DNA of 24,000 nucleotides, from positions 3,837-27,836 of the forward strand of contig CAKKTM010000260.1 of NCBI GenBank assembly GCA_920888515.1, written 5' to 3'. The notes below the pieces were generated by a model, which worked only from the letters and a program-made list of their open reading frames with translations, was not told where the DNA came from and searched no databases. Position 1 is the stretch's first letter, and each line of letters opens with the position of its first letter. This stretch comes from Frankia sp. CiP1_Cm_nod1 (GTDB lineage: Bacteria > Actinomycetota > Actinomycetes > Frankiales > Frankiaceae). A program made the position numbers and the translations under genes. Positions 1 through 21,436 of this stretch are shown here, in pieces.

Positions 1-572
1 CGTTCTCGCTGGGGAATACGTCCGCGACGGCCCGGCTGCGCGGCCGGGCCGGTGGGCAGCGATTCCTCTCCATTCTGGCCGCCACCCCTGGATCGCCCGC
101 CCTCCTTAAGCGGCAGGAACGAAACAGCCTGCACATCTTGATCTTTTTGCAGGCCCGCGACCTGTGAAGACGCTCCCGTGAATGCTTTTGTTAGTTCATC
201 ACGACCCCTAAGATCACCGACGCCGACATGCTGCTGACTGTCCAGATAGGTTGCGACGAGCCGCTGGAACACAGCGTTACCCGGATAGCGTCGGATGGCC
301 GCGCGCAGCAGCCTCCGGTAGGGCGCCTCGATGATCCCGGCATCGAATTCGAAGAAGATCTGGCCCCACCACTGTTCCGAGGTGCTGCCCTCCCGGCCCG
401 GGAGGCGTACCCGTGGAAATCCGATCTCATCCAGGACGATCGCCGCGGCGCCCCCTGTCGAGAAAACCGTGGCAATCTCGGTCAGGAAATCGTACCGATC
501 ACGCTGGCTCAGACGGATGTCGGGGCCGTCGGCCGGTGCTCTGGGTGCGTCACCGTACGCAGTCGGTGCCAC
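1..572 (-). CDS. Partial CDS (3' end off the left edge): protein with an N-terminal EAD1-like (effector-associated domain) helical adaptor module
   Basis: Not in the supplied ORF track because it has no in-window stop. My own minus-strand translation is open from 572 to position 1: VAPTAYGDAPRAPADGPDIRLSQRDRYDFLTEIATVFSTGGAAAIVLDEIGFPRVRLPGREGSTSEQWWGQIFFEFDAGIIEAPYRRLLRAAIRRYPGNAVFQRLVATYLDSQQHVGVGDLRGRDELTKAF... The pattern (GFP..lP, WW, helical LL.aa..YPGN near the end) resembles EAD1-type N-terminal adaptor modules as I remember them. The first plausible start is GTG at 572, which overlaps the ThiF 3' end by 64 nt; the start is uncertain. Third codon positions are mostly G/C. Confidence 0.45.
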   Translation of the reverse strand, partial: MAPTAYGDAPRAPADGPDIRLSQRDRYDFLTEIATVFSTGGAAAIVLDEIGFPRVRLPGREGSTSEQWWGQIFFEFDAGIIEAPYRRLLRAAIRRYPGNAVFQRLVATYLDSQQHVGVGDLRGRDELTKAFTGASSQVAGLQKDQDVQAVSFLPLKEGGRSRGGGQNGEESLPTGPAAQPGRRGRIPQRE

Positions 573-1681
573 TGGAAGCGCTCCCCCTCGGTGGTTGTCT
601 GAACGGTCAGGATCTCCCCGGGGGCGATTCCGAGGTCGTGCAGGCGCAGGGCGGGATCGGCGTCGCGGAGCCGTTCGCTGCGCCGGAGCCGTACGGCCCG
701 TCCGCAGCGCCGGCACCGCGGCGGCTGTCCTGGTTGTGCCGGTTGGTGTGGTTGTGCCGGTTGGTGTGGTTGTGCCGTGAGGTGAGCGTGGTTCTCGCCA
801 CAGTGATGGCAGCGTCCCGGGAGGGGGAAGGCCGCCCAGGCCAGTGGTTCCGCGCCGGCGGGCAGGGCTTCGAGCAGGTCGCCGACGGTGGCATGGTGGT
901 CGAGCGGCAGGGGGTGGACGGGTCCGTCCAACGGCCGGTGGTGCGGGCAGTCGGCGTCGCGGGTCAGGGTGACCGGGGCGGTGTCGCCGGTGGCGCCGTC
1001 GATCCGCAGCAGCCGGTACCGCGGCGGGCTGCCGAACAGGACGCGCAGCGCGACCAGTGTTATCCACCCGGCGACGATCGACGTGGACACGATCGACGCC
1101 GGCTGCGGGCCGTCCGGCCGGATCTCGGCGCAGCTCCACGGCAGGTCGGACTCGCCGCGCTGATGCGCGGTGAGCGAGCAGCCGTAGCAGGCCTCGGCCG
1201 GGTCCAGCCGCAGCCGGACCTCCCCGCCCCACGGGTGGGTGCCGCCGTCCACGAGCGCCGCGCCGACCAGCGTGGCCCGCCCGAGCAGGCGTAGCCGGGC
1301 GCGGCGGCTGTCCAGGCAGCCCAGGACGACCCCGGCGTCGGACAGCTCCCCGAGCCCGACCCCGGCGACCAGCTCGGCCGGCCGGGTCTCGACGGTGACG
1401 TCCGGGGCGATCCGGGACAGGGCGCCGGCCGCGGCGGTGGCCTTCGGGCGTCCGACGTCGTCCGGCCCGAGCAGCACGGTGCGGCTGAGGTTGCTCGCCG
1501 CGACCGTGTCCGGGTCGCAGAGGATCAGCCGTCCGACGCCGGCGAGCGCCAGGTTCTTGGCCACCTCGTTGCCGAGCGCGCCGACCCCGACGACCACCGC
1601 GGTGCTGGTGGCGAGCCGCTCCTGGTCCCAGTCGGGGATCAGCCGCTGCCGGGCGTAACGGTCCGCTGACGGTGAGCTCAC
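509..1681 (-). CDS. ThiF/MoeB/E1-like adenylyltransferase with a ~150-aa Cys/His-rich C-terminal extension
   Basis: 390-aa ORF with GTG start at 1681. Superfamily hallmarks: RYARQRLIPDWDQERL, Rossmann GVGALGNEVAKNLALAGVG, DPDTVAASNLSR, GCLDSRRARL, ACYGCSL. The C-terminal part (about 512-964) has CPHH...CHHCG...CRRCG zinc-ribbon-like cysteines, a PHQPAQ x3 repeat (18-bp repeat at 731-777) and a terminal LRLHDLGIAPGEILTVQT segment. Confidence 0.85.
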   Translation of the reverse strand: MSSPSADRYARQRLIPDWDQERLATSTAVVVGVGALGNEVAKNLALAGVGRLILCDPDTVAASNLSRTVLLGPDDVGRPKATAAAGALSRIAPDVTVETRPAELVAGVGLGELSDAGVVLGCLDSRRARLRLLGRATLVGAALVDGGTHPWGGEVRLRLDPAEACYGCSLTAHQRGESDLPWSCAEIRPDGPQPASIVSTSIVAGWITLVALRVLFGSPPRYRLLRIDGATGDTAPVTLTRDADCPHHRPLDGPVHPLPLDHHATVGDLLEALPAGAEPLAWAAFPLPGRCHHCGENHAHLTAQPHQPAQPHQPAQPGQPPRCRRCGRAVRLRRSERLRDADPALRLHDLGIAPGEILTVQTTTEGERFQWHRLRTVTHPEHRPTAPTSV

Positions 1682-1947
1682 CGATCCGCCCCGGCCGGGG
1701 CGTCCGCCAGGTCGGGCGTGGCGCGCACACGCTCATGCCACCGATCCGCCCCGGGCGGGCCGTCCGCACCTGGTTCACCGGCACGCGGGGCGCCCGCGTA
1801 CACGACATCCGTGTGTGGGCCGCCCTCGGGTGGCTGGCCGGCGGGTGGGCCGCCCGTCCGCGCTCCCTGGGCCGTGCTCACCGGGGGCGGTGGATGTACG
1901 CCGCCCTGGGGGACCACGTCCGCCCGCGTTCCGTGGGCCGTGGTCAC
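1678..1947 (-). CDS. Hypothetical small Pro/Gly/Ala-rich protein (89 aa), possibly only a spacer
   Basis: Sub-ORF of track ORF 1678..2082. GTG at 1947-1945 shares GTGA with the stop (1946-1944) of the upstream CDS. Its own stop (1680-1678) shares GTGA with the ThiF GTG start (1681-1679). Product VTTAHGTRADVVPQGGVHPPPPVSTAQGARTGGPPAGQPPEGGPHTDVVYAGAPRAGEPGADGPPGADRWHERVRATPDLADAPAGADR is low-complexity with no recognisable family. Confidence 0.3.
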   Translation of the reverse strand: MTTAHGTRADVVPQGGVHPPPPVSTAQGARTGGPPAGQPPEGGPHTDVVYAGAPRAGEPGADGPPGADRWHERVRATPDLADAPAGADR

Positions 1948-2942
1948 CGGTCCGCCACCCGGTTGAGGGTTACCGGGCAGTGGGTGAGCCCGCCGTCGGG
2001 CCGCCAGTCGTCCCAGCAGGTCAGGCCAGCGACCGGGTCCCGGTGCACGGCCGCCACGCAGACCTCGCGGTACATGCCGCACGGGCAGACCACCACCTGC
2101 TCGCCCGGCCGGAAGGTGTGCCCGCAGACCAGGCAGCCCGCGGCGTCCAGCCCCGGACCGGGCCGGGCGACCTGGGGCGCGTGCGCGGCGAGCCGGACGA
2201 CCGGTACGTCACCGGCCGGCGGCCAGGCGACGAGCAGGCCGGCGGCGAACGCGGCCAGCTCCTCAGCGTCCCCAGACGCGCCGTTCGCGCTGCTCCCGTT
2301 CGCGGTGCTCCCGTTCGCGGTGTCCTTCCCGGCGTTCCCGGTGCCCTCCCTCGCCCCCTTCGCCGCGTCCCTCGAGGTGTCCCGCGCGCTGGCTCCGCCG
2401 GACGCCGGGTGCCGGGCGTCCGGTGTCCCGTCGGCGCAGCGCAGCGCCGGGTCGAGGTGGACGACCGCGGTGGCGTCGCCGATGGCGGCGTCCGCCCGCA
2501 GACGGACCCGGTCCCCGCGGCGGAAGGTGTGCCTGCACCGGGCGCACCGCAGGTGCGTCCACCATGACTCCGAGTGGGTGACAGCGGCCCGGCTCCCGTC
2601 GCGGCCAGGCGGGCCGTCGTCCGCACGGCCCATCGCGGCGCCGGACGGTTGCGGGTCGAGCCCCGCTTCGACCCCGGCGTCGAGCTCAGCCGCCTCGTCG
2701 ACGCCACCCACACCGGCCCCGCCGCCCTCACCCACACCGGCCCCACCGGCCTCACCCACGCCGGCCCCACCGGCCTCACCCACGCCGGCCCCGCCGGCCT
2801 CACCCACGGTGGCCCCGCCGGCCTCACCCACGGCGGTATCGGCAGCGGCGGGCTCACCGGCGGCATCGCCGGCGCGGCCGGCGCGGCCGGCGCCATCGAC
2901 ATCGTCCGCGTCGGTGTCCGCGGGGCCGGAGCTCAGCCGCAC
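1944..2942 (-). CDS. Hypothetical Cys/His-rich protein with an internally duplicated zinc-ribbon / RING-like (treble-clef) module
   Basis: 332-aa ORF with GTG start at 2942. Module A (about 2436-2546): CARCRHTFRRGDRV...AVVHLDPALRC. Module B (about 1977-2135): CLVCGHTFRPGEQVVVCPCGMYREVCVAAVHRDPVAGLTCWDDWRPDGGLTHC. The two share CxxCxHTFRxGxxV and A-V-H-x-D-P...C. The N-terminal 100 aa are VGEAGGAG repeats (24-bp repeat), and the middle has ANGS repeats (15-bp repeat). Confidence 0.6.
   Translation of the reverse strand: MRLSSGPADTDADDVDGAGRAGRAGDAAGEPAAADTAVGEAGGATVGEAGGAGVGEAGGAGVGEAGGAGVGEGGGAGVGGVDEAAELDAGVEAGLDPQPSGAAMGRADDGPPGRDGSRAAVTHSESWWTHLRCARCRHTFRRGDRVRLRADAAIGDATAVVHLDPALRCADGTPDARHPASGGASARDTSRDAAKGAREGTGNAGKDTANGSTANGSSANGASGDAEELAAFAAGLLVAWPPAGDVPVVRLAAHAPQVARPGPGLDAAGCLVCGHTFRPGEQVVVCPCGMYREVCVAAVHRDPVAGLTCWDDWRPDGGLTHCPVTLNRVADR
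2707..2836. repeat. 24-bp tandem repeat, about 5.4 copies, in-frame (VGEAGGAG)
   Basis: cccac(a/g)ccggcccc(g/a)ccg(c/g)cctca repeated head to tail from 2707, inside CDS 1944..2942. Confidence 0.9.
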
Positions 2943-3319
2943 AGCATCTGCTCCGTGGCGCCACCGCCGAGGTCGGCCAGCAGCGCCTCCAGGACGGCCG
3001 GGCGGAACGCGTCACCGAGGATCTCCACCCCGGACCCGGTCACGGTGATCCGCACCCGGACCAGCCGGCCATCCGGATGATCGTCGTATTCGGACGCGTC
3101 GATGAGGTCCGGCAGGGACTCGACGAACGACGGCCCCTCATCACCGGCGGACGCCACCCGCAGGCCGCCGGCCGGCCCCTCGACACCTACGGGCTGCGCG
3201 GGCGCGGCCTCAACCGCGGCCTCGGCCCTGGCCTCGGTCTCAACCGCGCTCCCGGCCTCGGCCCGCAGAGGACCCCTGGTCGTGACGGGCCCGGCGGCCG
3301 GCCCCTCGAGGCCCGGCAC
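2933..3319 (-). CDS. Hypothetical small acidic protein (start uncertain, about 74-128 aa) ending ...ADLGGGATEQMLCG
   Basis: Track ORF 2933..3511 overlaps the radical SAM 3' end, so a later start is likelier. GTG at 3319 lies 5 nt after the radical SAM stop (3326-3324); another in-frame GTG gives VASAGDEG.... The better-looking C-terminal part is PSFVESLPDLIDASEYDDHPDGRLVRVRITVTGSGVEILGDAFRPAVLEALLADLGGGATEQMLCG. The stop (2935-2933) overlaps the next start (2942) by 10 nt. No family recognised. Confidence 0.4.
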   Translation of the reverse strand: MPGLEGPAAGPVTTRGPLRAEAGSAVETEARAEAAVEAAPAQPVGVEGPAGGLRVASAGDEGPSFVESLPDLIDASEYDDHPDGRLVRVRITVTGSGVEILGDAFRPAVLEALLADLGGGATEQMLCG

Positions 3320-3323
3320 GGCC

Positions 3324-4604
3324 TCAGCCGTCAGGGGGCTCCCGCTCCCGTGGCCCGGCGGGGCCGTCGGCCTCTGCGCCGGCTGTCTGGGCTCCTGCAC
3401 CGATCGTCCCCCATCGTCCCGGGACCGGCTGCCCGCAGTGCGGGCAGCGGCCGTGCGTGACCGCGGATTCCAGCGTCTCCCAGATGCCGCGTCGCACCAG
3501 CACGGTGTCACATGTCGGGCAGCGGGTCTGCCGGCCGGCGTCGCCGAGGGCCCGTTCGACGTAGACGAACCGCAGGCCGGCGTCCCGCCCGGCCGCCCGC
3601 GCCGCCGCCAGCGCCCGCGGGCTGGTCGGCGGCGGCCGGCGCATCCGGAAGTCCGGGGTGAAGCGCAGCAGGTGCCAGGGGATGCCCGGGTCGATCCCGG
3701 CGAGGTGGCGGGCGATGGCGCGCAGCGCCTCCGGCTCGGCGGACACCCCCGGGATCAGCGGTGTGGAGACCTCCACCCACACGCCGGCGGCGCGCAGCCG
3801 CTCGACCGCGTCCAGCACGGGACGCAGCGGCGCCCCGGTCAGCCGCCGGTGCGCGGCCTCGTCCGCGGCCTTGACGTCGATGTTCACCGCGTCCAGCGCG
3901 CCCGCGACCAGGTCGATCGCGGACGCGGTGAGGAAGCCGTTCGTCTTCCACACGATCGGCACGCCCGCCGGGGCGGCGAGGGCCGCGAGGTCGAGGGTCA
4001 GCTCCGGGGCGAGCCCGGGCTCGGCGTAGGACATGCCGAGGGACGCGCCGGCCGCCGCCGCCCGCTCGACCAGTTCGGCGGGCCGCGCGGGCCGGCCCGT
4101 CCAGGTGACGCCGTCGACCTGGCCGTACTGGGACAGCCGGTGGTTGACACAGTAGTTGCAGCGGAACGAGCATCCCGGCCCGGCGATCGTGAGCACCCTG
4201 CTGCCCGGCCGGACGTGGTACAGCGGCTTGCGCTCGATCGCGTCGAGGTGCTGGACGGCGAGGGCGTAGGTGGCGGTCTCCAGCACCCCGGCGTGGTTGC
4301 GCCGCACGGCGCACACACCGGTCTCCCCCGGCCCCAGCTCGCACCCGTGCGGGCACAGCAGGCAGCGAATCCGCCGGTCACCCGCGCCGCCGGCCCCGGC
4401 CGCGCCTCCGGCGGACACGTTCTCCCCGGACGGGCCTCCCGCGGACGGGCCTCCCGCGGGCGGGCCTCCGACGGGTTCGCCGAGGACAGCCGCCCGCCAC
4501 ACCGGCCCGCGCGAGCCGTCAGACACGACGCGTCCCAGACGTGTACGGCTGGTGACGATCCAGGTTGCCGGCCTGGTTGTGGGGGTGAGGACGGCGTAGG
4601 GCAT
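3324..4604 (-). CDS. Radical SAM enzyme, AmmeMemoRadiSam-system radical SAM (AmrS) / PflA-like subgroup
   Basis: 426-aa ORF with ATG at 4604. N-terminal CLLCPHGCELGPGETGVCAVRRNHAGVL. IERKPLYHVRPGS is followed by the CxxxCxxC radical SAM motif GCSFRCNYCVNHRLSQ. Further matches: WVEVSTPLIPGVS, IPWHLLRFTPDF, and a C-terminal zinc ribbon CPTCDTVLVRRG...GRCPHCGQPVPGRW. All are typical of AmrS-like proteins. The N-terminal GGPPAGGPSAGGPSG comes from a 15-bp x3 repeat (4428-4472). Confidence 0.85.
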   Translation of the reverse strand: MPYAVLTPTTRPATWIVTSRTRLGRVVSDGSRGPVWRAAVLGEPVGGPPAGGPSAGGPSGENVSAGGAAGAGGAGDRRIRCLLCPHGCELGPGETGVCAVRRNHAGVLETATYALAVQHLDAIERKPLYHVRPGSRVLTIAGPGCSFRCNYCVNHRLSQYGQVDGVTWTGRPARPAELVERAAAAGASLGMSYAEPGLAPELTLDLAALAAPAGVPIVWKTNGFLTASAIDLVAGALDAVNIDVKAADEAAHRRLTGAPLRPVLDAVERLRAAGVWVEVSTPLIPGVSAEPEALRAIARHLAGIDPGIPWHLLRFTPDFRMRRPPPTSPRALAAARAAGRDAGLRFVYVERALGDAGRQTRCPTCDTVLVRRGIWETLESAVTHGRCPHCGQPVPGRWGTIGAGAQTAGAEADGPAGPREREPPDG

Positions 4605-7903: not shown

Positions 7904-8497
7904 TCAGCGGTCCCGGACGGTGATGCCTGCCAGGATCAGGTGGAGGAAGCGAGTGCTGCCGTCCCTGTCGGGCAGTGCGTTCTCCCGTACCCATGCCGCG
8001 CCGCCGAGCAGGTCGAACAGTTCCTCGGGGGTGAGGTCCGCGCGGACCCGGCCGGCGTCCTGAGCCGCCCGCAGCAGCTCCGCCCCGCAGCGGTGCATAG
8101 CCATGCACACGGCATGTGACGGTGTGCCCTCGTCGTACATGCTCTGCGTCAGGATCTCGACCAGCCCCCGGAAGGTGCTGAAGTGCTCGATGGCGTTGGC
8201 CATCCAGTCCGTCAGCGCGTGGAGCGGGTCGACGCCGTCGGCCCGCATGCCCTCGGCGCGCGCGACAAGCGCCTGCAGACCGTCCCTGGTCGTGGCCTCG
8301 ACCAGACAGGCCCGGGTCGGGAAGTGCCGGTAGAGGGTGCCGATGGCGACCCCCGCCTGGCTGGCGATCTCCTCCAGTGACGCGTCGGAACCGGCGGCGT
8401 CGAACGCCTTGCGCGCGGCGCTGAGGATCGCGTCGTAGTTGCGTCTTCCGTCAGCCCGCTTGGGACGGTGGGCGATGTACGGTACGGCGCCTCCCAT
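7904..8497 (-). CDS. TetR/AcrR family transcriptional regulator
   Basis: HTH region RRNYDAILSAARKAFDAAGSDASLEEIASQAGVAIGTLYRHFPTR is followed by a helical ligand-binding domain. I place the start at the internal ATG 8497 (MGGAVPYIAHRP...) because GAGAGGAGGG (Shine-Dalgarno-like) sits just upstream. The track ORF extends to 8641. Confidence 0.85.
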   Translation of the reverse strand: MGGAVPYIAHRPKRADGRRNYDAILSAARKAFDAAGSDASLEEIASQAGVAIGTLYRHFPTRACLVEATTRDGLQALVARAEGMRADGVDPLHALTDWMANAIEHFSTFRGLVEILTQSMYDEGTPSHAVCMAMHRCGAELLRAAQDAGRVRADLTPEELFDLLGGAAWVRENALPDRDGSTRFLHLILAGITVRDR

Positions 8498-8677
8498 CGG
8501 CCCTCCTCTCGCGTCTCCCCGCTGGCAGCCTGAGCATTTCTCATGTTGGGAGCGCCCGGCAACAGGGATCCGATCATCAGTCGAGACAAACAGGGCGATC
8601 CACGACGTCGGGATGGCAGGGCCACCGGTCCACACGGCCACGCAGCCGGGCGGCCACGCAGCCGGGCGGGAAAGAAG

Positions 8678-9469
8678 TCAGACCTGTCCCGTCACGGCAT
8701 AGTCGAGACTGTCGTTCAGGATGGCGTTCTGGAGTCGGCGCATCGTCTCACCGGGCTCGAGCCCGAGCTCGTCCCGTAGTACCCGCCGGGTGTGCTGGAA
8801 CACCCTGAGCGCTTCGGCGCGGCGGCCCGACCGGTGCAGCGCGAGCATCAGCTGTTCCCGGAAGGCCTCGTGCAGCGGGTGCTCCTCGACCCAGTTCGTC
8901 AGGTCGCCCACCAGCTCACGGTGGCGTCCCGTCCGCAGCAGGCAGTACGCGATCGACTCCAGGCATTCCAGCCGTATCTCCTCCGCCCACCGTACGAAAG
9001 TGGTTGTGGTCGCGCCTCTGCCGATCCCGGCCAGCACGGGCCCGCGGAAAAGCCGCGACGCCGCGGTGAAGCTGACGAGCGCCCGCTCCGGATCAGGCAT
9101 GCGGTTCTCCCGCCCGCGGGCATGCGACACCCGTAGTTCGCAGGTGTCCAGCAAAGCCTCGTCGACCGCGAGCAGATAGCCCTGCGGGTGCGTTACGATC
9201 ACCGCGTTGCGCACCCTGAAATGGGCGAACATCTTACGTAGATGAGAAACGTAGACGTGCAGTCCGGCGCGCGCCCGGCGGGGCCGTTCCTCACCCCAGA
9301 TCTCGCTGATCAGCTCCTCGGAGAAGACCGGGCGGTTCGCGCGGATGAGAAGCACGGCGAGCAGGGTCTCGATTTTGGCCGCGCTGATCGTCCTCGGACC
9401 GTCCCGGTCGCTCACCAGTTGGAGAGGGCCCAGCAACTCGAATCTCACGGCTTCTCTCACGACTTCCAC
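8678..9469 (-). CDS. SARP (AfsR/DnrI/RedD-type) transcriptional regulator: OmpR-like winged helix plus BTAD domain
   Basis: VRFELLGPLQL...ISAAKIETLLAVLLIRANRPVFSEELISEIWGEERP...LHVYVSHLRK is the DNA-binding domain. LECLESIAYCLLRTGRHRELVGDLTNWVEEHPLHEAFREQLMLALHRSGRRAEALRVFQHTRRVLRDELGLEP is the BTAD domain. The start is uncertain. GTG at 9469 has GAGGA upstream; alternatives are GTG 9460, GTG 9448, ATG 9595 and the track start 9661. Confidence 0.8.
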   Translation of the reverse strand: MEVVREAVRFELLGPLQLVSDRDGPRTISAAKIETLLAVLLIRANRPVFSEELISEIWGEERPRRARAGLHVYVSHLRKMFAHFRVRNAVIVTHPQGYLLAVDEALLDTCELRVSHARGRENRMPDPERALVSFTAASRLFRGPVLAGIGRGATTTTFVRWAEEIRLECLESIAYCLLRTGRHRELVGDLTNWVEEHPLHEAFREQLMLALHRSGRRAEALRVFQHTRRVLRDELGLEPGETMRRLQNAILNDSLDYAVTGQV

Positions 9470-9611
9470 AGCCCTGTCCTCTGCCGGATGAAGCCCCGTC
9501 CCGCGCGCAGGACGGGACGGATGTGGATGACGACGGTGCGGCGGGCCGGAGCCCGCTTCGCCTGACGCGGCACCAGCGGCGTGGTCGGGATACATGTGGG
9601 CGGGGTATCCG

Positions 9612-11071
9612 TCAGGCTCTCTCGCCGGCGAGCTCGGGCCGCGTGACCGGCTTCCTGGCACCGGTCAGCCCGAACACGGCCAGCGCGAGCGCTGTCGCGG
9701 TGTAGCCGACGCCGACGTAGAACGCGATCCGGTAGCCGTGGACGACGTCGGTGGCGGTGCCGGCCGTGCCGGCGGTCGCGGCGCCGAACACCGCCACCAG
9801 GATGGCCAGCCCGATCGAGCCGCCCAGCCGCTGCGAGACGTTGAGCACCCCGGCGGCGGCGCCGGCGATGCCGGGTTCCACGTCGGCCAGCGCGATCCGG
9901 GTGACCAGGGCGAACTGCAGCCCGATGCCGGCGCCGAAGAGCGTCATCGGCCCGAGCACGGCCGCGAGGTAGGAGCTGTGCTCGGTGATCCGGGTGAGCC
10001 AGACGGTTGCCGTCAGAGTGGCGGTCGCACCGACGATCAGGACGGGTTTGGCGCCGAACCGTTCGGACAGCCCGGACACCAGTGGGAGAACGCGAAGATC
10101 CCGATGCCCCACGGCACGAACGCCAGCCCGGCCTGGAACGGGGTCAGCCGCAGGATGTTCTGCAGGAACTGGGTGACGAAGAAGAAGATGGCGAAGATCG
10201 ACCCGCCGAGCAGCAGCAGCAGGTTCGCGCTGACCCGGTTGCGGTTGCGGAACAGCGCGAGCGGGGTCAGCGGCGCCTCGGTCCGCCGCTCGACCGCCAC
10301 GAAGGCGACCAGCAGCAGCACACCCACCACGGTCAGCGTCAGCAGTTCGGGCCAGCTGCCGGACGAGCTGCGGATCAGGACGTAGGTCAGCGCGGTGACC
10401 CCGAGGGTGGACAGCAGTGCCCCGGTGACGTCGAAGCGTCCGCCGGCCCGGTCCGACTCACGGATATGGACGGTCGCGAGCGCCGCGACGAACACTCCGA
10501 TCGGCACGTTGACGAACATGGTCCAGCACCAGGAGGCCCATTCTGTGAGCACGCCACCAAGGATCATCCCGACCACGCCGCCGGCCCCGGACACCGCGCC
10601 GTAGACGCCGATGGCCCTGGCCCGGGCCGGCCCGGCGAAGTTGGTGGCGATCAGAGCGAGCGCGGTCGGTGACGCGACCGCGGCACCGACGCCCTGCAGG
10701 GCCCGCGCGGCCACCAGCGCTCCCGCGTTCGGCGCGAGCCCGGCCAGCAGCGAGGCCAGGGTGAACAGCCAGACCCCGGCGAGGAAGACGCGTCTGCGTC
10801 CGAGGATGTCCCCGGCCCGCCCGCCGAGCAGGAGCAGCCCGCCGAAGGTCAGCGTGTAGGCGTTGAGCACCCAGGACAGCCCGGTCGGTGAGAACCCGAG
10901 GTCGAAGCGGATGTCGGGCAGCGCGATGTTGACCACGCTGGCGTCGAGCACCACCATCAGCTGGCTCACCGCGATCGCGGTGAGGAGCAGCGCCGGCCGG
11001 CCGCGCGGAGCCGAGCCGGTGGCCTCGGCGGCAGCGATGGTGGTGGGCGCGCCACTGGGCGAGGCAGCCAT
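9612..11071 (-). pseudogene. DHA2 (EmrB/QacA-type, 14-TMS) MFS drug exporter, interrupted by a 1-nt frameshift
   Basis: ATG at 11071 is preceded by GGAGGG. N-terminal motifs: LLLTAIAVSQLMVVLDASVVNIALP and GRAGDILGRRRVF. Similarity continues to ...AFVPWGIGIFAFS in one frame (track ORF 10037..11683), then resumes as PLVSGLSERFGAKPVLIVG... in the frame of ORF 9612..10112. The switch is at a G/C run at 10084-10086, where one extra C on the coding strand would restore a ~486-aa protein. It could be a real frameshift or a homopolymer sequencing error. Confidence 0.75.
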
Positions 11072-11243
11072 CAGCCCTCCGTTGGCAGTGAGACGTCGGC
11101 AGCGGGAAAGGACGGGAGAGGTTACGGAAGATCGGAGGAGACCCGAGGCCGGTGGGGACTGCCGGGCGCTGGCCGACGAACGCGTGTTCGTGCCCGCCCA
11201 CCGGGTGCTGCTCGGCGTTCTGGGCCGCGCGGCCGGGCGGGGC

Positions 11244-11420
11244 GAGATCAGGGCCGAGCTGGTCACCGACCTGATCGCGCTCGGCCTCGGCGGCCTGGCC
11301 GGCCCAGTAGCGCAGCCGGTAGAACTCGCGCGCGGGCACCGGCGCGAAACGCCACGCGGCCGGGTGCCAGCCGGCACCCTCCAGCGCGACGGCGAGATGA
11401 AGCGGAGCGTGACCTGCCAC
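11244..11420 (-). pseudogene. Possible N-terminal remnant of an NtaA/DszA-type luciferase-like (LLM) monooxygenase
   Basis: The start of track ORF 10458..11420 reads (V)AGHAPLHLAVALEGAGWHPAAWRFAPVPAREFYRLRYWAGQAAEAERDQVGDQ. This resembles the HLg.f..G.G.H.aaWR....y..lA..AER..fD N-terminus of that family. Similarity is then lost, and the ORF runs into the MFS gene. Confidence 0.3.
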
Positions 11421-11853
11421 GGCTCACCACACTTTCCGGGTGTCTCTGGCACCACCACCGGTACGGCCACCGGAAAAAGATCTCCTGATACCGGCACGTC
11501 GATACGGTCGTGGCGGCTGGTAAAGGCGTGCGCGGCACTCGGGAAAAGCCGACACGGCAGTGCCCCCACCAGACAACACGGCCTCCACGAAAGCTGACAC
11601 GAATAACGCGGCCGACACCGGATCCGGTCTTTTACGCGGCCTGCGACTGGGCGGATCTTACAGTCGGCCGAAGAGCCGGACAAGAGGCCTGGCGGGCGAC
11701 GTGGCCATCATTTTGGTACGGCTTTAGAACTGTTCTGGAACACGTAATACAAAAGACAACGGAACAGCGGTACGGTGCTGGGCGGGGCCGCCCCTGAAAA
11801 GGCCGCCCGGCCCAGCAGCCCACCAGCCCACCAGAGCCAGTCGAGGAGCTCGA

Positions 11854-15098: not shown

Positions 15099-15965
15099 TC
15101 AGGCGTCGTCCCGCACCTGTCGGGTGGGCGCTTCCCCGGCCGGGCCGGCCTCCCGGGTGCGGGCCAGCCGGCGGTTGGTGAGCTCAAGCTGGGTCACTGT
15201 GTCGCGGCGCAGCGTCGTGGCCTGCCCGTCGGTGAGCCGGCCGCTGACCCGGTCCCAGTGCAGGGCGACCCACTCCCCCGGTCGCACGTCGGGGGCGAAG
15301 CTGACACCGCCGGTGACGAGCGCGGCCCGCAGCGGCCGGGGCCCGGACAGCCCGAGCCCGCCGTTCTCCCAGGTCAGGCCCGCGGAGCGCACCACGACAT
15401 GATCGCCGTCGCGTTCCGTCACCTGCCCCCAGCGAATCCGGCAGCTGTCCAGCACGTGCAGTGGCCAGGTGGGGTCCGGCGAGTCCAGCAGCCGGGACCA
15501 AGGGTAGACCCCGAAGACGTGGAAGCAGTGGTTCGGCGCGACCTCGTCAAGGATCTGCGGGGTGAGGTGCCGCCAGTACCACCCGGCCTGCGGACCGATC
15601 ACAGCCAGCAGCGCCGCGCCGAACTCGCGGGGGTCGACCGCCTCCGACACGCCGCCGCCGAGCCAGTACGCCTCGACCACCCGGCGGTCGAGCGGGTCGT
15701 CGATACCGGTGAGCCGGGCCAGGATCCGCAGGTACGGCCATGCTCCGTGGAAGCGGCGGGCCAACGCCCGCAGATCACCCCCTGTGGCACCAGCTCCGCC
15801 AGCTCCGGCGGAGTCGGTCGCACTCGCGGCACCCGTCGCACCGGCGGCACCGGCGGTCAGCAGGGCCCGCGGCGCGTCGGCCGGGCCGCAGTAGCCGAGC
15901 TCGTTCGGCGCGTAGGCGTAACGGGCGAACATCCGCGCGCCGTCCTCGTCACGGGGCGCGCTCAC
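15099..15965 (-). CDS. Conserved hydrogenase-cluster-associated protein (DUF6390-like; family name from memory)
   Basis: Only the C-terminal part of track ORF 15099..17162 is credible: MFARYAYAPNELGYCGPAD...FHGAWPYLRILARLTGIDDPLDRRVVEAYWLGG...NHCFHVFGVYPWSRLL...LDSCRIRWGQV...GEWVALHWDRVSGRLT. The start is either GTG 15965 (GTGA overlap with the hypD stop 15964-15962) or ATG 15932. Confidence 0.7.
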   Translation of the reverse strand: MSAPRDEDGARMFARYAYAPNELGYCGPADAPRALLTAGAAGATGAASATDSAGAGGAGATGGDLRALARRFHGAWPYLRILARLTGIDDPLDRRVVEAYWLGGGVSEAVDPREFGAALLAVIGPQAGWYWRHLTPQILDEVAPNHCFHVFGVYPWSRLLDSPDPTWPLHVLDSCRIRWGQVTERDGDHVVVRSAGLTWENGGLGLSGPRPLRAALVTGGVSFAPDVRPGEWVALHWDRVSGRLTDGQATTLRRDTVTQLELTNRRLARTREAGPAGEAPTRQVRDDA

Positions 15966-17062
15966 CGCAGGGCCATCCGTCCGAAGGTGTAGTAGGCCGC
16001 GCAGGCGCCCTCCGAGGAGACCATGCAGGTGCCGATCGGGGTCTGCGGCGTGCAGGCGGTGCCGAACACCTTGCACTCCCACGGCTTGAGGACGCCCTTG
16101 AGGACCTCCCCGCACTGGCACGCCTTCGGGTCGGCGACGCGGACGCCGGGCATGTCGAACCGCCGCTCGGCGTCGAACCGCGCGAAGCCGTCGGTCAGCC
16201 GCAGCGCGCTCTGCGCGATGAAGCCCAGCCCACGCCACTCGAAATGGGGCCGCAGCTCGAACACCCGCGCCATCAGCGCCAGCGCCTGGGGGTTGCCCTC
16301 CTCGCGCACCACCCGGCCGTACTGGTTCTCGACCTCGCAGCGCCCCTGCCGGATCTGCCGGAGCAGCATCGCGACCGCGGCGAGGATGTCCAGCGGCTCG
16401 AAGCCGGCCACCACGACCGGCCTGCCGTACGTCTCGGGGACGAAGCGGTACGGCCGGCTGCCCACCACGGTCGAGACGTGCCCCGGCCCGATGAAGCCCG
16501 ACAGCCGCAGGCCGGGCGAGCGCAGGATCGCCCGCAGCGGCGGAATGATCGTGACGTGGTTGCAGAACACGCTGAAGTTGGTCAGCCCCAGCTCCCGGGC
16601 CCGCAGCAGCGTCACCGCGGTGGACGGGGCGGTGGTCTCGAACCCGACCGCGAAGAACACGACGTGCCGGTCCGGGTTGTCCACGGCCACCCCGAGCGCG
16701 TCCAGCGGCGAGTACACGAAGCGGACGTCCGCCCCGCGCGCCCTGGCCTCCAGCAGGCTGCCGCGGCCACCGGGCACCCGCATCATGTCGCCGAACGAGG
16801 TGAGGATGACCCCCGGCTGCTCGGCCAGCCAGATGGCGTCGTCGACCCGTCCCATCGGGATGACGCACACCGGGCAGCCCGGCCCGTGCACCAGCTCCAC
16901 CGACTCGGGCAGCAGGTGCTGGATGCCGTGCCGGTAGATGGTGTGGGTGTGGCCGCCGCACACCTCCATGAACGCGTAGCTGTCCGTCCCGGCCAGCTCC
17001 GTGATGGCGGCCACCAGCGCACGCGCGGCCGCCGGATCGCGGAACTCGTCGACGAAACGCAT
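15962..17062 (-). CDS. hypD: [NiFe]-hydrogenase maturation protein HypD
   Basis: 366 aa. MRFVDEFRD, MEVCGGHTH, GPGCPVCV, FFAVGFETTAP, GPGHVS, and C-terminal CQCGEVLKG...PIGTCMVSSEGACAAYY. ATG at 17062 with GAGGAG upstream. Confidence 0.95.
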   Translation of the reverse strand: MRFVDEFRDPAAARALVAAITELAGTDSYAFMEVCGGHTHTIYRHGIQHLLPESVELVHGPGCPVCVIPMGRVDDAIWLAEQPGVILTSFGDMMRVPGGRGSLLEARARGADVRFVYSPLDALGVAVDNPDRHVVFFAVGFETTAPSTAVTLLRARELGLTNFSVFCNHVTIIPPLRAILRSPGLRLSGFIGPGHVSTVVGSRPYRFVPETYGRPVVVAGFEPLDILAAVAMLLRQIRQGRCEVENQYGRVVREEGNPQALALMARVFELRPHFEWRGLGFIAQSALRLTDGFARFDAERRFDMPGVRVADPKACQCGEVLKGVLKPWECKVFGTACTPQTPIGTCMVSSEGACAAYYTFGRMALR

Positions 17063-17179
17063 CGGATTCTCCTCGCGGTGACGGCTGACGGCTACGGCCG
17101 GCGAGCCGGAACGATCTGTACGGCAGCGGTGGAACCGGCCGCGGCAGGCGTGGCAGACGCAACGATCCCGGCAGATACG

Positions 17180-17310
17180 GCGGCCCAGGCGGACACGACG
17201 GCCCAGGCGGACACGGCGAGCAGGGCAGGCACGGCCGACACGACGGGCACAGCCGACGCGAGGAGCGTGGCCGACACGGCGAGCGCGGCCGACACGGTGA
17301 GCGCGGCGAG
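17180..17310. repeat. Degenerate 18-bp repeats in the 256-bp hypC-hypD spacer
   Basis: cggcccaggcggacacga (17180-17197) and cggcccaggcggacacgg (17198-17215) are followed by variants ggccgacacg(a/g)cg.gc.c.... Confidence 0.75.
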
Positions 17311-17318
17311 CGCGGCGG

Positions 17319-17591
17319 TCAGGGGATCGCGGACGAGCCGAACGCCTCGATCTCGTCCTGGTAGGCCGCGCCCAGCTTCTCCATCGCCTCGAGCGTGCGC
17401 GTCGCCTCGGCCTCGTCGATCACCGCCAGGGCGAACCCGACGTGCACCAGCACCCAGTCCCCGACCCGTGGGCCGTCCGCCGCGACCAGCCGGATGCTGA
17501 TCGTCCGCCGCACCCCGCTGACGTCGACCGTCGCGAGATGCCGCTCCGCGTCGACGATCTCGACAAGCCGCCCGGGAATCCCCAGACACAT
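17319..17591 (-). CDS. hypC: Hydrogenase assembly chaperone HypC/HybG/HupF family
   Basis: MCLGIPGRLVEIVDAERHLATVDVSGVRRTISIRLV...GDWVLVHVGFALAVIDEAEA. ATG at 17591 is preceded by GGAGG. The track ORF 17319..17741 over-extends the N-terminus. Confidence 0.9.
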   Translation of the reverse strand: MCLGIPGRLVEIVDAERHLATVDVSGVRRTISIRLVAADGPRVGDWVLVHVGFALAVIDEAEATRTLEAMEKLGAAYQDEIEAFGSSAIP

Positions 17592-17871
17592 CAACAGCCT
17601 CCTCACGCTACGACGCAGTGCCACCACCTGGCGACACCCCTCTGCCCACCCGCCCACACCTCTCATCACCCGGCGCGGCGGGTCGCGCCACGGCCTGGCG
17701 ACCACCTGCCCCACCCGCACACACCTCTCACCACACGTCACGTCTCACCCACACCGCCACAAGGCCCGACAAGCCACCACGAACATCGCCCGCGCTCCCC
17801 GCCCCCGGAACACAACCGCACCGCGCATCCGTCCCACCCCAACCAGCGATCTCACGGATCGGCACGCCCCA

Positions 17872-17921
17872 GGAATGAGTGTGGAAGTGGTCGCTACAAC
17901 AGCCACTTCCACACTCATTCC
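17872..17921 (-). terminator. Perfect 19-bp-stem hairpin (12-nt loop) about 100 nt downstream of hypE; candidate intrinsic terminator or RNA element
   Basis: GGAATGAGTGTGGAAGTGG (17872-17890) and CCACTTCCACACTCATTCC (17903-17921) are exact reverse complements. There is no U-tract on the minus-strand transcript, so terminator function is uncertain. Confidence 0.35.
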
Positions 17922-18017
17922 CATCATCGAAAAAGGACGGACCGACCGACAGGACACAGACGGCAACGGGCGGGCGGGACGGCGGGACGGCAGGACGGCA
18001 GGACGGCGGGGGCATGG

Positions 18018-19136
18018 TCAGCAGATGCGGGGCAGTGGGTCGCCGACCAGCATGTCCACGATCCGGGTGCCGCCCAGGGCGGTGCGCATCGCGACGATCC
18101 CGGCCGGCCCATCGGTGATCTCCCCGATGACCGCGGCCGACCGGCCCAGCGGATGCTCCCGCAGCGCGGCCAGCGCCGCCGGGGCCTGCTCGGGCGGCAC
18201 CACCGCGAGGAACCTGCCCTCGTTGGCGACGTGGAGCGGGTCGATGCCGAGCAGCTCGCAGGCGCCGCGCACGTCGGGGCGCACCGGCACGGAGCACTCG
18301 TCGAGCAGGACGCCGAGGCCGGTGTCCCGGGCCAGCTCGTTGCAGGCCGTCCCCACCCCGCCGCGGGTGGGGTCACGCAGCCAGCGTGCCGACGGCGCCG
18401 CCGCCAGCAGCTCCTCCACCAGCGCGTCGACCGCCGCCGTGTCGGAGCGGATGGCGGCGTCGATCGCCAGGTTGCCGCGGGCGAGCATGACCGCCATCCC
18501 GTGCTCGCCGATCGTGCCGGACACCAGCACCCGGTCCCCCGGCCGCACCCGCCGCGCGGACAGCTGCCGGCCGGGCGGGACGAGCCCCACCCCGGCGGTC
18601 GTGATGATCAGTCCGGCGGACGCGCCGGCGTCGACGACCTTGGTGTCCCCGGTCACCACCTCCACGCCCGCGGCCCGCGCCGCCTCGGCCATGTCCTCGG
18701 CGACGCGGCGCAGCTCGTCGACGGGGAAGCCCTCCTCGATCACGAATGCCGCGGACAGCCACAGCGGCCGTGCCCCCGTCATCGCCAGGTCGTTGACGGT
18801 GCCGTGCACCGCCAGGTCACCGATGGAGCCGCCGGGGAAGCGCAGCGGCCGGACCACGAAGGAGTCGGTGCTGAAGGCCAGCGACTCCCCCGACGGCAGC
18901 GGCAGGACCGCGCCGTCCCCAAGGACGTCGAGCGCGGGACTGCGGAAGACGTCGACGAAGACCGTCTCGATCAGCTCCGCCGACGCGCTCCCGCCGGCCC
19001 CGTGCGCCGAGGTCACCACCTCGCCGAGCGTCCGCGGCCGGCGCCGCCGGAACGTCCCGGCCCGCGCCGGCACCGCCTCCCCACGGTCCGTCTTCTCCAC
19101 CCGGCCCGTCCGCTCCGTCCGGTCCGCCACGCTCAT
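18018..19136 (-). CDS. hypE: [NiFe]-hydrogenase maturation protein HypE (carbamoyl dehydratase)
   Basis: PurM-like: LAFSTDSFVV.P..FPGGSIGDLAVHGTVNDLAMTGARP, VVTGDTKVV, GEHGMAVM, and the diagnostic C-terminus GDPLPRIC. I place the start at ATG 19136 (MSVADRTE...), which forms an ATGA overlap with the upstream stop (19135-19133). The track start 19259 reads through a 9-bp repeat. Confidence 0.93.
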   Translation of the reverse strand: MSVADRTERTGRVEKTDRGEAVPARAGTFRRRRPRTLGEVVTSAHGAGGSASAELIETVFVDVFRSPALDVLGDGAVLPLPSGESLAFSTDSFVVRPLRFPGGSIGDLAVHGTVNDLAMTGARPLWLSAAFVIEEGFPVDELRRVAEDMAEAARAAGVEVVTGDTKVVDAGASAGLIITTAGVGLVPPGRQLSARRVRPGDRVLVSGTIGEHGMAVMLARGNLAIDAAIRSDTAAVDALVEELLAAAPSARWLRDPTRGGVGTACNELARDTGLGVLLDECSVPVRPDVRGACELLGIDPLHVANEGRFLAVVPPEQAPAALAALREHPLGRSAAVIGEITDGPAGIVAMRTALGGTRIVDMLVGDPLPRIC

Positions 19137-20212
19137 CGGGTGCGCTCCCCCGCCGTCGGGTACGTCGGGTACGTCGGGTACGTCGGGTACCTCGGGTACG
19201 CCGGATACGTCGGGTACGCGGCCGGATGGTCCGTCATCCGTTGCTGTGTCGCGGCCCACAGGTGGTGGCCGAGCAGGGCGTGTGACTCCTGGATGCGGTG
19301 CACGCTCTGTGAGCGGACGACGAAGCAGCGGTCGACCACCCCGTCGGCGGCGAACCGTCCGCCGTCGTATCCGGCGAAGCCGACGGTGAGCGCTCCCCGA
19401 CGGCCGGCCTCGGCCAGCCCGGCCAGCAGGTTGGCCGAGCCGCCGCTGGTCGACAGCGCCACCGCGATGTCGTCCGGGCCGGCGTGCGCGATGAGCTGCC
19501 GGGCGAACACCCGCTCGAACCCGACGTCGTTGCCGAGCGCGGTGACCACCGCCTGGTCCGCGGCCAGCGACCAGGCCGGCAGCGGACGCCCGTGCGGCGG
19601 CCGGGAGAACAGCTCGGCCAGGGTCGCGGCGTCGGTCGCGCTACCGCCGTTACCGAAGGTGTACATACGTCCACCCCGGGCGAAACGCCGTGCCATCTCC
19701 GCCGCGGTGGCCGCGATCGACTCGGCGCATTCCCGCAGCGTCGTGCGCTGCAGCCGCACGCTCTCCCGGGCCTTCGCCCGCGCCGAACCGGCGAGTTCGG
19801 CCAGCAACGCACCCAGCGCGTCCCCCGGGCCACCGGCATGCCGCCCACCGGTATTCCGGCCGTCGTCCCTCCAGCTGTCGGCCTCTCGACTGCTGGCATC
19901 CCGGCCGTCGGCATCCCGGCCGTCGGCATCCCGGCCGTCGGCATCCCGGCCGTCGTCCCTCTCGCTGTCGGCCTCTCGACTGCTCGCACCTCGGCCGTCG
20001 GCGTCCCGACCGCGGGCGTCCCGGCCGCCAGCGTCCCGGTCGTCCTCCCGCTGGCCGCTCCCCTGGTGGTCGCCGTCTTCCTGGCCACCGTCGTGCCGGT
20101 CGTGGCCGGCCCGGTCAGCGCCGGCCCGGGGGCTGCTGTCCCGGTCGTCGCCGCTGTCCGCCTGGGGGTGGAGGAACGGGTACAGGAACGCGGTGTGCTC
20201 GGTGGCCATCAC
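19133..20212 (-). CDS. SIS-domain (GmhA/DiaA-like) hydrogenase-cluster accessory protein with a ~110-aa Asp/Arg/Gly-rich insertion and a C-terminal YPT repeat
   Basis: EHTAFLYPFL precedes the low-complexity region. The SIS core follows: RESVRLQRTTL...ARRFARGGRMYTFGNGGSATDAATLAELF...IAVALSTSGGSANLLAGLAEAGRRGALTVGFAGYDGG...VRSQSVHRIQESHALLGHHLW. The start is GTG 20212 or ATG 20209, both overlapping the upstream stop (20211-20209). Confidence 0.8.
   Translation of the reverse strand: MMATEHTAFLYPFLHPQADSGDDRDSSPRAGADRAGHDRHDGGQEDGDHQGSGQREDDRDAGGRDARGRDADGRGASSREADSERDDGRDADGRDADGRDADGRDASSREADSWRDDGRNTGGRHAGGPGDALGALLAELAGSARAKARESVRLQRTTLRECAESIAATAAEMARRFARGGRMYTFGNGGSATDAATLAELFSRPPHGRPLPAWSLAADQAVVTALGNDVGFERVFARQLIAHAGPDDIAVALSTSGGSANLLAGLAEAGRRGALTVGFAGYDGGRFAADGVVDRCFVVRSQSVHRIQESHALLGHHLWAATQQRMTDHPAAYPTYPAYPRYPTYPTYPTYPTAGERTR
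19155..19217. repeat. 9-bp tandem repeat x7 (gtcgggtac), in-frame (YPT/YPA repeats)
   Basis: Seven head-to-tail units at 19155-19217, four of them identical, at the 3' end of the SIS gene. Confidence 0.9.
19856..20040. repeat. 15-bp tandem repeat x4 (ggcatcccggccgtc, 19895-19954) nested in a ~90-bp duplication; encodes GRDAD repeats
   Basis: The flanks ccggccgtcgtccct..ctgtcggcctctcgactgct occur at 19856-19894 and again at 19946-19984. Further degenerate units run to about 20040. Confidence 0.9.
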
Positions 20213-21434: not shown

Positions 21435-21436
21435 GG

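What the first reader, a model, noticed from the sequence alone, without database searches (positions are those of the whole stretch)
1944..2942. Internally duplicated Cys/His module next to the E1-like gene (RING-like, zinc ribbon, or E2-like loop?)
Residues 133-169 (CARCRHTFRRGDRV...AVVHLDPALRC) and 270-322 (CLVCGHTFRPGEQVVVCPCGMYREVCVAAVHRDPVAGLTCWDDW...THC) are clear paralogous repeats. Copy B has 7 Cys and 3 His spaced like a binuclear treble-clef. It resembles the CxxC-x10/11-CPxC...H..C..W layout I recall for prokaryotic RING-finger families, but with CPC instead of CPxC. Copy A has lost the middle Cys pair. The H-x-D-P-x4/5-C-W-D-D-W segment also superficially recalls the HPN...C active-site loop of E2 enzymes. 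Either reading would be functionally meaningful beside an E1-like enzyme. The rest of the protein is tandem-repeat low complexity.
Basis: partly seen in the sequence, partly recalled or inferred. Interest (0 to 1): 0.6.

Follow-up and report, generated by a model that had tools for sequence, protein, structure and literature searches.

The report
Tandem RING-type E3 beside bacterial E1
This gene encodes the RING-finger ubiquitin-ligase-like component, built from one intact and one half-decayed zinc module, of an already described bacterial ubiquitin-like conjugation and conflict system, so it is a correct but largely known call.

Summary
The ORF at window 1944-2942 (minus strand, 332 aa) is an internal duplication: BLASTP E 7e-5, profile-profile 98%, E 1.8e-13 over 82 columns. 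The repeated unit is larger than reported, a helix plus linker plus zinc module.

Copy B keeps 7 Cys and 1 His invariant across 90 homologs. Its AlphaFold model matches only eukaryotic RING-H2 E3 domains at the top of a PDB fold search. Copy A keeps four ligands, enough for one zinc site. A divergent minority branch has a complete copy A that passes Pfam's Prok-RING_1 cut-off, so copy A here is probably a decayed RING.

The gene sits immediately upstream of the ThiF/E1 gene in 36 of 36 genome loci. An EAD1-Ubl-E2 gene and a JAB gene follow in 33 of 36. The locus is an FtsH-vWA-MoxR ternary conflict system with a Ubl tri-ligase. Kaur et al. 2020 (eLife, PMC7159879) already list a "prokaryotic RING-type E3 component" for it.

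The E2-like-loop reading is rejected. The real E2 (HPN...C) is encoded two genes downstream, and the His and Cys in question are best read as zinc ligands (inferred).

Verdict: a new member of a known kind. The tandem and degenerate architecture is a modest new detail. E3 activity is untested.

The parts
1944..2942 (-). Whole ORF, 332 aa: tandem RING-like protein, the predicted E3 of the Ubl tri-ligase
2705..2893 (-). N-terminal low-complexity region made of DNA tandem repeats (24-nt period x5.5 at 2705-2836; 9-nt x2.9 at 2868-2893). Absent from most homologs. Copy number differs from a near-identical database protein.
2658..2702 (-). Unit A helix (residues ~81-95, F/L-x-x-G-x-x-x-G-x-D-P motif)
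   Evidence: AF2 helix at 62-76 of P0006; conserved G and P columns; aligns with the unit B helix
2436..2561 (-). Module A (residues 128-169): degenerate RING-like module with four ligands (C133, C136, H162, C169), predicted to bind one zinc. It lacks the CPC pair and the C-W-x-x-W helix motif.
2286..2435 (-). Low-complexity inter-module linker (residues 170-219), including a 15-nt x2.8 tandem repeat at 2281-2322; pLDDT below 60
2226..2285 (-). Unit B helix (residues ~220-239, F-A-A-G-L-L-x-x-W-P-P)
   Evidence: AF2 helix at 201-220 of P0006; F and G conserved
1974..2135 (-). Module B (residues 270-323): complete binuclear RING-like module. Ligands are C270, C273, C286, C288, C295, H300, C309 and C322. 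W313 lies four residues after C309. P323 follows C322.
509..1681 (-). ThiF/E1-like adenylyltransferase, the next gene downstream
   Evidence: Pfam ThiF 4.2e-41; adjacent in 36/36 loci
2933..3319 (-). fvmRadSAM-pep peptide gene (PF20007). Its stop overlaps the RING gene start by 10 nt.
   Evidence: Pfam 3.6e-31; directly upstream in 25/36 loci
3324..4604 (-). Radical SAM enzyme of the AmmeMemoRadiSam type
   Evidence: TIGR04337 220.1 bits
4791..7739 (-). WD40 beta-propeller protein with a divergent C-terminal half, the vWA component of the ternary system
   Evidence: WD40 3.2e-56; ortholog position in L007; C-terminal half has no Pfam hit
1..494 (-). 5' part of the EAD1-EAD2 adaptor gene, which continues off the window (L006 3533-4330)
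   Evidence: EAD1 1.6e-12, EAD2 2.9e-5

Best explanation
The protein is the RING-type E3-like subunit of the Ubl conjugation module (E1, EAD1-Ubl-E2, JAB) inside an FtsH-vWA-MoxR ternary conflict system.

It is a tandem duplication of a helix plus RING-like unit. Module B is a complete binuclear RING variant. I infer site 1 as C270, C273, H300 and C309, and site 2 as C286, C288, C295 and C322. C295 replaces the canonical eighth ligand.

Module B is predicted to dock the E2~Ubl thioester through its CPC loop and its C-W-D-D-W helix, and to stimulate transfer of the EAD1-tagged Ubl to a target lysine. There is no spare invariant Cys, so it should act as an adaptor-type E3 and not a thioester-forming one.

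Module A keeps only site 1 and has lost the E2-binding helix motif. It is probably a structural pseudo-RING that packs against or orients module B, or that binds a partner.

Shown here: the duplication, ligand conservation, a RING-like predicted fold, and invariant linkage to E1, E2 and JAB. Inferred: the zinc-site assignment, E2 binding and ligase activity.
For: - Duplication.
- Ligand conservation: seven Cys and one His are invariant in module B, and C, C, H (plus C in at least 90%) in module A, across 90 homologs. They are also conserved in divergent members at 18% mean column identity.
- Fold: the AF2 model has pLDDT 83-96 over the modules. The top 18 Foldseek PDB hits are all RING E3 domains (RMR1, RNF13, RNF38, RNF12, ZNRF1), with probability up to 1.00 and TM 0.54-0.63.
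- Pfam: Prok-RING_1 is hit by 28 of 32 homologs and is above the cut-off in P0218, P0227 and P0231.
- Synteny: the RING-like gene is followed directly by ThiF in 36/36 loci, with Ubl-E2 and JAB in 33/36. The same holds in the divergent branch.
- Local context: EAD1-Ubl-E2 with HPN...C, fvmJAB_N/JAB, fvmX1 and bpMoxR are present.
- Literature: Kaur et al. 2020 describe the RING-type E3 in this system.
Against: - This protein itself scores below the Prok-RING_1 gathering threshold (17.3 against 29.1 bits). In a whole-genome scan E is only 0.07.
- No Foldseek match reaches E <= 0.001.
- Ligand spacing departs from both canonical RING and prokaryotic C4HC3: CPC instead of CPxC, H-x8-C instead of H-x2-C, and only one Cys after the helix.
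- Model coordinates could not be inspected, so cross-brace geometry is unverified.
- No member of this family has been tested biochemically in the literature I could search.
- Adjacency is to the E1 gene, which would also fit an E1-accessory role.
Confidence: 0.72

Rival explanations
1. The protein is a non-catalytic zinc-finger scaffold or E1-accessory subunit. The two Zn modules would tether the ThiF/E1, or the rSAM-modified peptide, to the vWA/MoxR/FtsH machinery without stimulating Ubl transfer.
For: - It is adjacent to the E1 in 36/36 loci and to the fvmRadSAM-pep peptide in 25/36.
- Module A lacks E2-binding features.
- The Pfam RING score is sub-threshold.
Against: - Module B keeps the canonical RING E2-contact features: a Pro-containing loop at ligands 3-4, a Trp four residues after ligand 6, and C-P at ligand 7.
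- The top fold matches are all E2-binding RING-H2 domains.
- Eleven loci lack the peptide and rSAM genes but keep the gene.
Confidence: 0.17
2. The protein is a thioester-forming tandem-RING ligase of the RBR or RCR type. One module would bind E2~Ubl and the other would carry a catalytic Cys.
For: - Two RING-like modules lie in tandem, and both are complete in a divergent branch.
- One homolog gave a weak IBR_1 hit (E 7.8e-4).
Against: - Every invariant Cys is needed to fill the predicted sites: eight ligands for two sites in module B and four for one site in module A. No spare invariant Cys is left.
- The N-terminal module is degenerate in 164 of 189 two-module proteins.
- The IBR hit is in a single sequence and is weak.
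Confidence: 0.05
3. The protein is E2-like, with H300-x-D-P...C309 as an HPN...Cys active-site loop.
Against: - No UBC fold appears among the structure matches, and no UQ_con hit is found in this protein.
- H300 and C309 align with zinc ligands of RING modules.
- A genuine E2 with HPN...C is encoded in the same operon.
Confidence: 0.02

Closest known systems
Prokaryotic RING-type E3 component of the FtsH-vWA-MoxR ternary systems with a Ubl tri-ligase (Kaur, Burroughs, Iyer, Aravind 2020, eLife, PMC7159879)
   Same: Same gene neighbourhood: beta-propeller-vWA, AmmeMemo-type radical SAM plus PF20007 peptide, E1, EAD1-Ubl-E2, fvmJAB_N JAB, fvmX1 and bpMoxR. Same taxa: filamentous Actinomycetota and Polyangium.
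   Different: The accessible text names the component but does not describe the tandem duplication, the degenerate first module or the C5HC2 ligand pattern. Here an EAD1-EAD2 adaptor gene replaces the EAD1-caspase (CHAT) gene seen in Actinomadura. The FtsH-type AAA gene falls in an assembly gap.
Pfam PF14446 Prok-RING_1 (Burroughs, Iyer, Aravind 2011; C4HC3 prokaryotic RING)
   Same: CxxC knuckle, a Pro-containing second ligand pair, the His...Cys-Trp third pair, and linkage to E1, E2, Ubl and JAB genes. Divergent family members pass the model's cut-off on their complete module A.
   Different: This protein scores 17.3 bits against a 29.1 cut-off, matching only model positions 6-27. Module B has CPC instead of CPxC, H-x8-C spacing and a relocated eighth ligand. 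Module A has lost a whole zinc site.
Eukaryotic RING-H2 E3 domains (RNF38, RNF13, RNF12, Arabidopsis RMR1)
   Same: They are the best structural matches: Foldseek probability up to 1.00 and TM 0.54-0.63 normalised to the target. Shared features are Trp at ligand 6 +4 and C-P at ligand 7.
   Different: 15-23% identity and E-values of only 8e-3 to 0.4. The ligand order is C5HC2 against C3H2C3. There is a six-residue insertion between ligands 5 and 6. The cognate E2 is made as a fusion with the Ubl.
RING heterodimers with one inactive partner (BRCA1-BARD1, RING1B-BMI1, MDM2-MDMX)
   Same: An E2-binding RING is paired with a RING-like module that does not bind E2. This is analogy only, from general knowledge.
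   Different: Here the two modules lie in one polypeptide, and the inactive one has lost a zinc site. No structural evidence for module-module packing could be inspected.

Membership tests
Pfam Prok-RING_1 (PF14446) | Whole-protein score at or above the gathering cut-off of 29.1 bits | tested here: not met
   17.3 bits, E 0.0048, residues 269-289 only. Relatives P0218, P0227 and P0231 score 33.1, 29.7 and 41.2 bits on module A, so the link is transitive.
Pfam Prok-RING_1 (PF14446) | C4HC3 ligand pattern with a CPxC second pair | tested here: not met
   Module B is C-C-C-C-C-H-C-C with CPC. Module A has only C-C-H-C. The pattern is met by module A of the divergent branch. The C4HC3 pattern is as summarised in PMC11354881.
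Pfam Prok-RING_1 (PF14446) | Gene-neighbourhood linkage to Ubl, E1, E2 and JAB genes | tested here: met
   ThiF adjacent in 36/36 loci, Ubl-E2 and JAB in 33/36. Also true in metagenome loci of the divergent branch.
RING superfamily (binuclear cross-brace treble clef) | Eight conserved zinc ligands | tested here: met
   Module B: C270, C273, C286, C288, C295, H300, C309 and C322 are invariant in 90 sequences. Seven of the eight are also invariant in the 20 divergent sequences, where the first Cys of the CPC pair is not fully conserved. Module A has only four.
RING superfamily (binuclear cross-brace treble clef) | Fold similarity to solved RING domains | tested here: inconclusive
   The top 18 Foldseek hits are all RING E3 domains, with probability up to 1.00 and TM 0.54-0.63, but the best E is 7.9e-3 and none reaches 1e-3. 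Module A alone: RING-H2 is still on top but E is 0.44.
RING superfamily (binuclear cross-brace treble clef) | Cross-brace coordination of two zinc ions | not testable with these tools
   Model coordinates are not returned. The site assignment is inferred from which ligands module A retains and from motif alignment to canonical RING.
RING superfamily (binuclear cross-brace treble clef) | E2 binding and stimulation of Ub/Ubl transfer | not testable with these tools
   Only sequence features are available: W313 at ligand 6 +4 and P287 in the ligand 3-4 loop, conserved in at least 90%.
FtsH-vWA-MoxR ternary system, Ubl tri-ligase variant (Kaur et al. 2020) | Beta-propeller-vWA, E1, EAD1-Ubl-E2 and JAB, plus MoxR and FtsH-type AAA in one neighbourhood | tested here: met
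   WD40-vWA, ThiF, EAD1-Ubl-E2 (UQ_con 6.7e-4, HPN...C), fvmJAB_N 1.5e-45, fvmX1 at the contig end, and bpMoxR 176 bits at the end of contig C294. The FtsH-type AAA gene was not found and is presumed to lie in the assembly gap. The full set is present in the Actinomadura ortholog locus.
UBC/E2 fold | UBC fold with an HPN motif and a catalytic Cys | tested here: not met
   No UQ_con hit and no UBC structures among the fold matches.

The most novel reading that the evidence does not exclude
The family is an intramolecular RING/pseudo-RING pair. It would descend from a tandem of two complete RINGs, still seen in a minority branch. The decayed one-zinc module A would serve as the obligatory non-catalytic partner or substrate receptor of the active module B. 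That would make it a single-chain bacterial counterpart of eukaryotic heterodimeric RING E3s, and possibly the first endogenous bacterial RING E3 shown to work with a bacterial E1/E2/Ubl cascade.
Probability: 0.25. Interest if true: 0.55.

Novelty: new member of a known kind. Interest (0 to 1): 0.33.

Why it matters
The bacterial Ubl pathways I know to have been studied experimentally (Bil, and Cap2 in CBASS; from general knowledge) work without an E3. My literature searches found no biochemical study of this RING family.

This family is small, with about 180 clusters at 50% identity among 1.84 billion proteins. It is tightly linked to an E1, an E2 and a JAB. That makes it a clean candidate for testing whether RING-type E3 catalysis exists in bacteria.

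The tandem architecture, with a degenerate first module, gives concrete mutants to test. For genome annotation, current Pfam and NCBIfam models miss the family at their thresholds, and sources label its members as hypothetical proteins, rubrerythrin or DUF1610.

Tried and rejected
- NCBIfam and PADLOC gave no hit for the protein.
- A PDB sequence search with the 90-sequence profile gave only insignificant zinc-finger hits, best E 0.24.
- PF26417 and PF27618 appeared in precomputed annotations. They are only 'faint' hits to DUF8112 and Zn_ribbon_GTF2H2, and PF26417 is not in the local library.
- Burroughs et al. 2011 (PMC5938088) is not held, so I could not check whether the tandem architecture was described there.
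- The supplement of Kaur et al. that is held has no RING entries.
- A metagenome scan with a 13-sequence alignment failed for lack of conserved stretches. It worked with 6 sequences.
- Cluster look-up of divergent members returned no organism names.
- The ORF 1678-2082 (minus strand) between the RING and E1 genes translates to Arg/Gly/Pro-rich sequence that looks out of frame, so I did not treat it as a gene.
- The E2-like loop reading was rejected and the RBR-like catalytic-Cys reading judged unlikely, for the reasons given under the rival explanations.

Full report
**The observation**

The window is high-GC (0.65-0.79). Codon-position GC shows a run of minus-strand genes from 7739 down to the window start.

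Pairwise BLASTP of the two halves aligns residues 133-171 with 270-311 at 38% identity, E 7e-5. On a 90-sequence family alignment (A2), hhalign of the Zn modules gives 96.8% probability, E 2.6e-10. Extending the ranges gives 98%, E 1.8e-13 over 82 columns. So the duplicated unit is a conserved helix, a linker and a Zn module, not only the Cys/His segment.

The low-complexity stretches are real DNA tandem repeats: 24-nt x5.5 at 2705-2836, 9-nt x2.9 at 2868-2893 and 15-nt x2.8 at 2281-2322. Most homologs are about 200 aa long and lack them.

**Conservation**

A word-indexed search found 91 homologs. An exhaustive HMMER search of 1.84 billion cluster representatives found only 180 at E <= 0.001, and nearly all span both modules.

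In 90 sequences at 27% mean column identity the invariant columns are as follows (window-protein numbering):
- Module A: W128, C133, C136, F140, R141, D144 and H162. C169 is conserved in at least 90%.
- Module B: C270, C273, F277, R278, C286, C288, C295, H300, C309 and C322.
- Conserved in at least 90% in module B: P287, W310, W313 and P323.

Module B therefore has exactly eight invariant ligands, enough for two zinc sites. Module A has four, enough for one.

**Fold**

AlphaFold2 with the 90-sequence alignment gives pLDDT 83-96 over both modules and both helices, and below 60 in the repeats. Foldseek against the PDB returns RING E3 domains as the top 18 hits: Arabidopsis RMR1, RNF13, RNF38, RNF12, ZNRF1 and Ark2C. 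Probability reaches 1.00 and TM is mostly 0.54-0.63 normalised to the target, lower for ranks 16-18. The best E is 7.9e-3 and none reaches 1e-3.

A model of unit A alone (pLDDT 78.9) again puts RING-H2 domains on top, but not significantly (E 0.44, probability 0.77). No UBC or E2 structure appears in either list.

**Relation to Prok-RING_1**

The protein's only Pfam hit is Prok-RING_1, at 17.3 bits against a cut-off of 29.1, on residues 269-289. 28 of 32 homologs show the same sub-threshold hit.

Thirteen of the 189 two-module proteins form a divergent, lower-GC, metagenome-only group whose module A is complete: CxxC-x12-CPxC...H-x8-CW...C...C, a C4HC3 pattern. In three of these, module A passes the Prok-RING_1 cut-off at 33.1, 29.7 and 41.2 bits. 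Their module B gives weak zf-RING_2 hits. A review (PMC11354881) gives C4HC3, with a long insertion between the last ligands, as the prokaryotic RING pattern.

I infer that the family began as a tandem of two complete RINGs, and that the dominant branch lost one zinc site of module A. That branch holds 164 of the 189 two-module proteins, including this one and the Polyangium proteins. The direction of change is inferred from parsimony and from resemblance to the outgroup model, not from a rooted tree.

**Zinc-site assignment (inferred)**

Module A retains the equivalents of C270, C273, H300 and C309. It lacks the equivalents of C286, C288, C295 and C322.

Aligned to the canonical RING motif:
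- C309-W-D-D-W313 matches ligand 6 followed by the E2-contacting Trp at +4.
- C322-P323 matches the canonical C7-P.
- The canonical C8 position (T325) is variable, and the extra invariant C295 is the likely substitute.

Hence site 1 = C270, C273, H300, C309 and site 2 = C286, C288, C295, C322. Model coordinates are not returned by the tool, so this geometry is untested.

**Genomic context**

Downstream of the gene lies a ThiF/E1 (Pfam 4.2e-41). The window lies at contig C260:3837-27836. The 3.8 kb beyond the window's left edge encode:
- an EAD1-EAD2 adaptor;
- an EAD1-Ubl-E2 protein with an HPN...C motif and a weak UQ_con hit (6.7e-4);
- an fvmJAB_N/JAB peptidase (1.5e-45);
- the start of fvmX1 at the contig end.

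bpMoxR lies at the end of another contig (176 bits). The FtsH-type AAA gene was not found and presumably lies in the gap, since the genome is 87% complete.

Upstream lie the PF20007 'FtsH ternary system-associated peptide' (3.6e-31), an AmmeMemoRadiSam-type radical SAM (220 bits) and a WD40 protein with a divergent C-terminal half.

The Actinomadura graeca ortholog locus shows the complete set in one piece. In 36 loci, the RING-like gene is followed directly by ThiF in 36, and by Ubl-E2 and JAB in 33. The three exceptions are truncated contigs. The peptide lies directly upstream in 25. These 36 are the 34 genome loci plus L007 and L015.

In the divergent branch, ThiF is adjacent in all 12 contigs that extend far enough. 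Ubl-E2 and JAB follow in all 4 long contigs.

The gene is single-copy here. It is patchily distributed, found in 7 of 56 genomes of the order, as expected for an accessory conflict system.

**Comparison with the literature**

Kaur et al. 2020 (PMC7159879, section 21) describe this system. [quoted passage not shown] Most such systems also carry the radical SAM peptide module.

I found no experimental work on this E3. The accessible text does not mention the tandem or degenerate architecture. The 2011 RING survey could not be read.

**Mechanism (most likely)**

1. JAB releases EAD1-Ubl from the EAD1-Ubl-E2 polyprotein.
2. The ThiF-type E1 adenylates the Ubl and passes it to the E2 cysteine.
3. 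Module B of this protein binds E2~Ubl through the CPC loop and the CWxxW helix and promotes transfer to a target lysine.
4. The EAD1 on the conjugated Ubl then recruits EAD1-bearing partners. Here that is an EAD1-EAD2 adaptor. Relatives have EAD1-CHAT or TIR proteins.

Steps 1, 2 and 4 follow Kaur et al.'s model. Step 3 is inferred from RING biology.

All invariant Cys are accounted for as zinc ligands, so a thioester-forming (RBR or RCR-type) mechanism is unlikely. Module A lacks the Trp helix and one zinc site. It is probably structural or partner-binding, and its partner is unknown.

**Verdict**

The RING reading is supported and the E2-loop reading is rejected. The gene is a new member of a known, computationally described kind. 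The tandem RING plus pseudo-RING architecture and the C5HC2 ligand variant are modest additions.

Noticed in passing
window 2705-2893 (minus strand, N-terminal codons of the RING gene): A near-identical database protein (P0006, 313 aa) lacks two 8-residue repeat units and one 3-residue unit, and has one T/M substitution. Otherwise it is 100% identical from residue 100 onward. This looks like repeat-number polymorphism (VNTR) in the coding low-complexity region between close strains.
   Followed up: partly
L046 10001-10886 (Frankia sp. QA3): The ortholog appears frameshifted inside a greatly expanded linker tandem repeat (a 7-residue unit, about 9 copies). Module B is readable only in another frame. 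This is either a pseudogene or an assembly error at the repeat.
   Followed up: no
window 1679-1767 (intergenic, between the RING gene stop and the E1 start): A ~29-nt direct repeat occurs twice, 60 nt apart, in the unusual 262-nt gap. The second copy ends in the E1 GTG start codon. In most relatives the two genes abut or overlap. Its function is unknown.
   Followed up: no
window 1-494 and L006 3533-4330 (minus strand): An EAD1-EAD2 adaptor gene is inserted between the E1 and EAD1-Ubl-E2 genes, in a region of lower GC (0.68 against ~0.77). Its EAD1 is 73% identical in DNA to the EAD1 of the Ubl-E2 gene. No EAD2-bearing effector was looked for.
   Followed up: partly
P0231 (metagenome protein, 414 aa): A fusion of a Ubl-like N-terminus (weak Rad60-SLD hit), a TIR domain (1.6e-27) and the tandem RING pair. 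A divergent locus, L015, also carries several TIR genes around the RING-E1-E2-JAB core.
   Followed up: no
window 2933-3511 (minus strand): The PF20007 peptide ORF overlaps the radical SAM gene's 3' end if read from its first GTG, so the real start is probably near 3319 or later. The Actinomadura ortholog is 74 aa. Its stop overlaps the RING gene start by 10 nt. It ends in GGG-x7-CG.
   Followed up: partly
G000 contigs C260:1-194 and C294:8851-9234: The conflict system is split by assembly gaps. fvmX1 runs off the start of C260 and bpMoxR runs off the end of C294. The FtsH-type AAA gene expected between them is not assembled.
   Followed up: yes
window 15962-23998 (minus strand): An unrelated hydrogenase maturation cluster is present (HypF, an AIR-synthase-like HypE, HypC, HypD), along with MFS, TetR and BTAD/SARP regulator genes at 7904-11683.
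   Followed up: no
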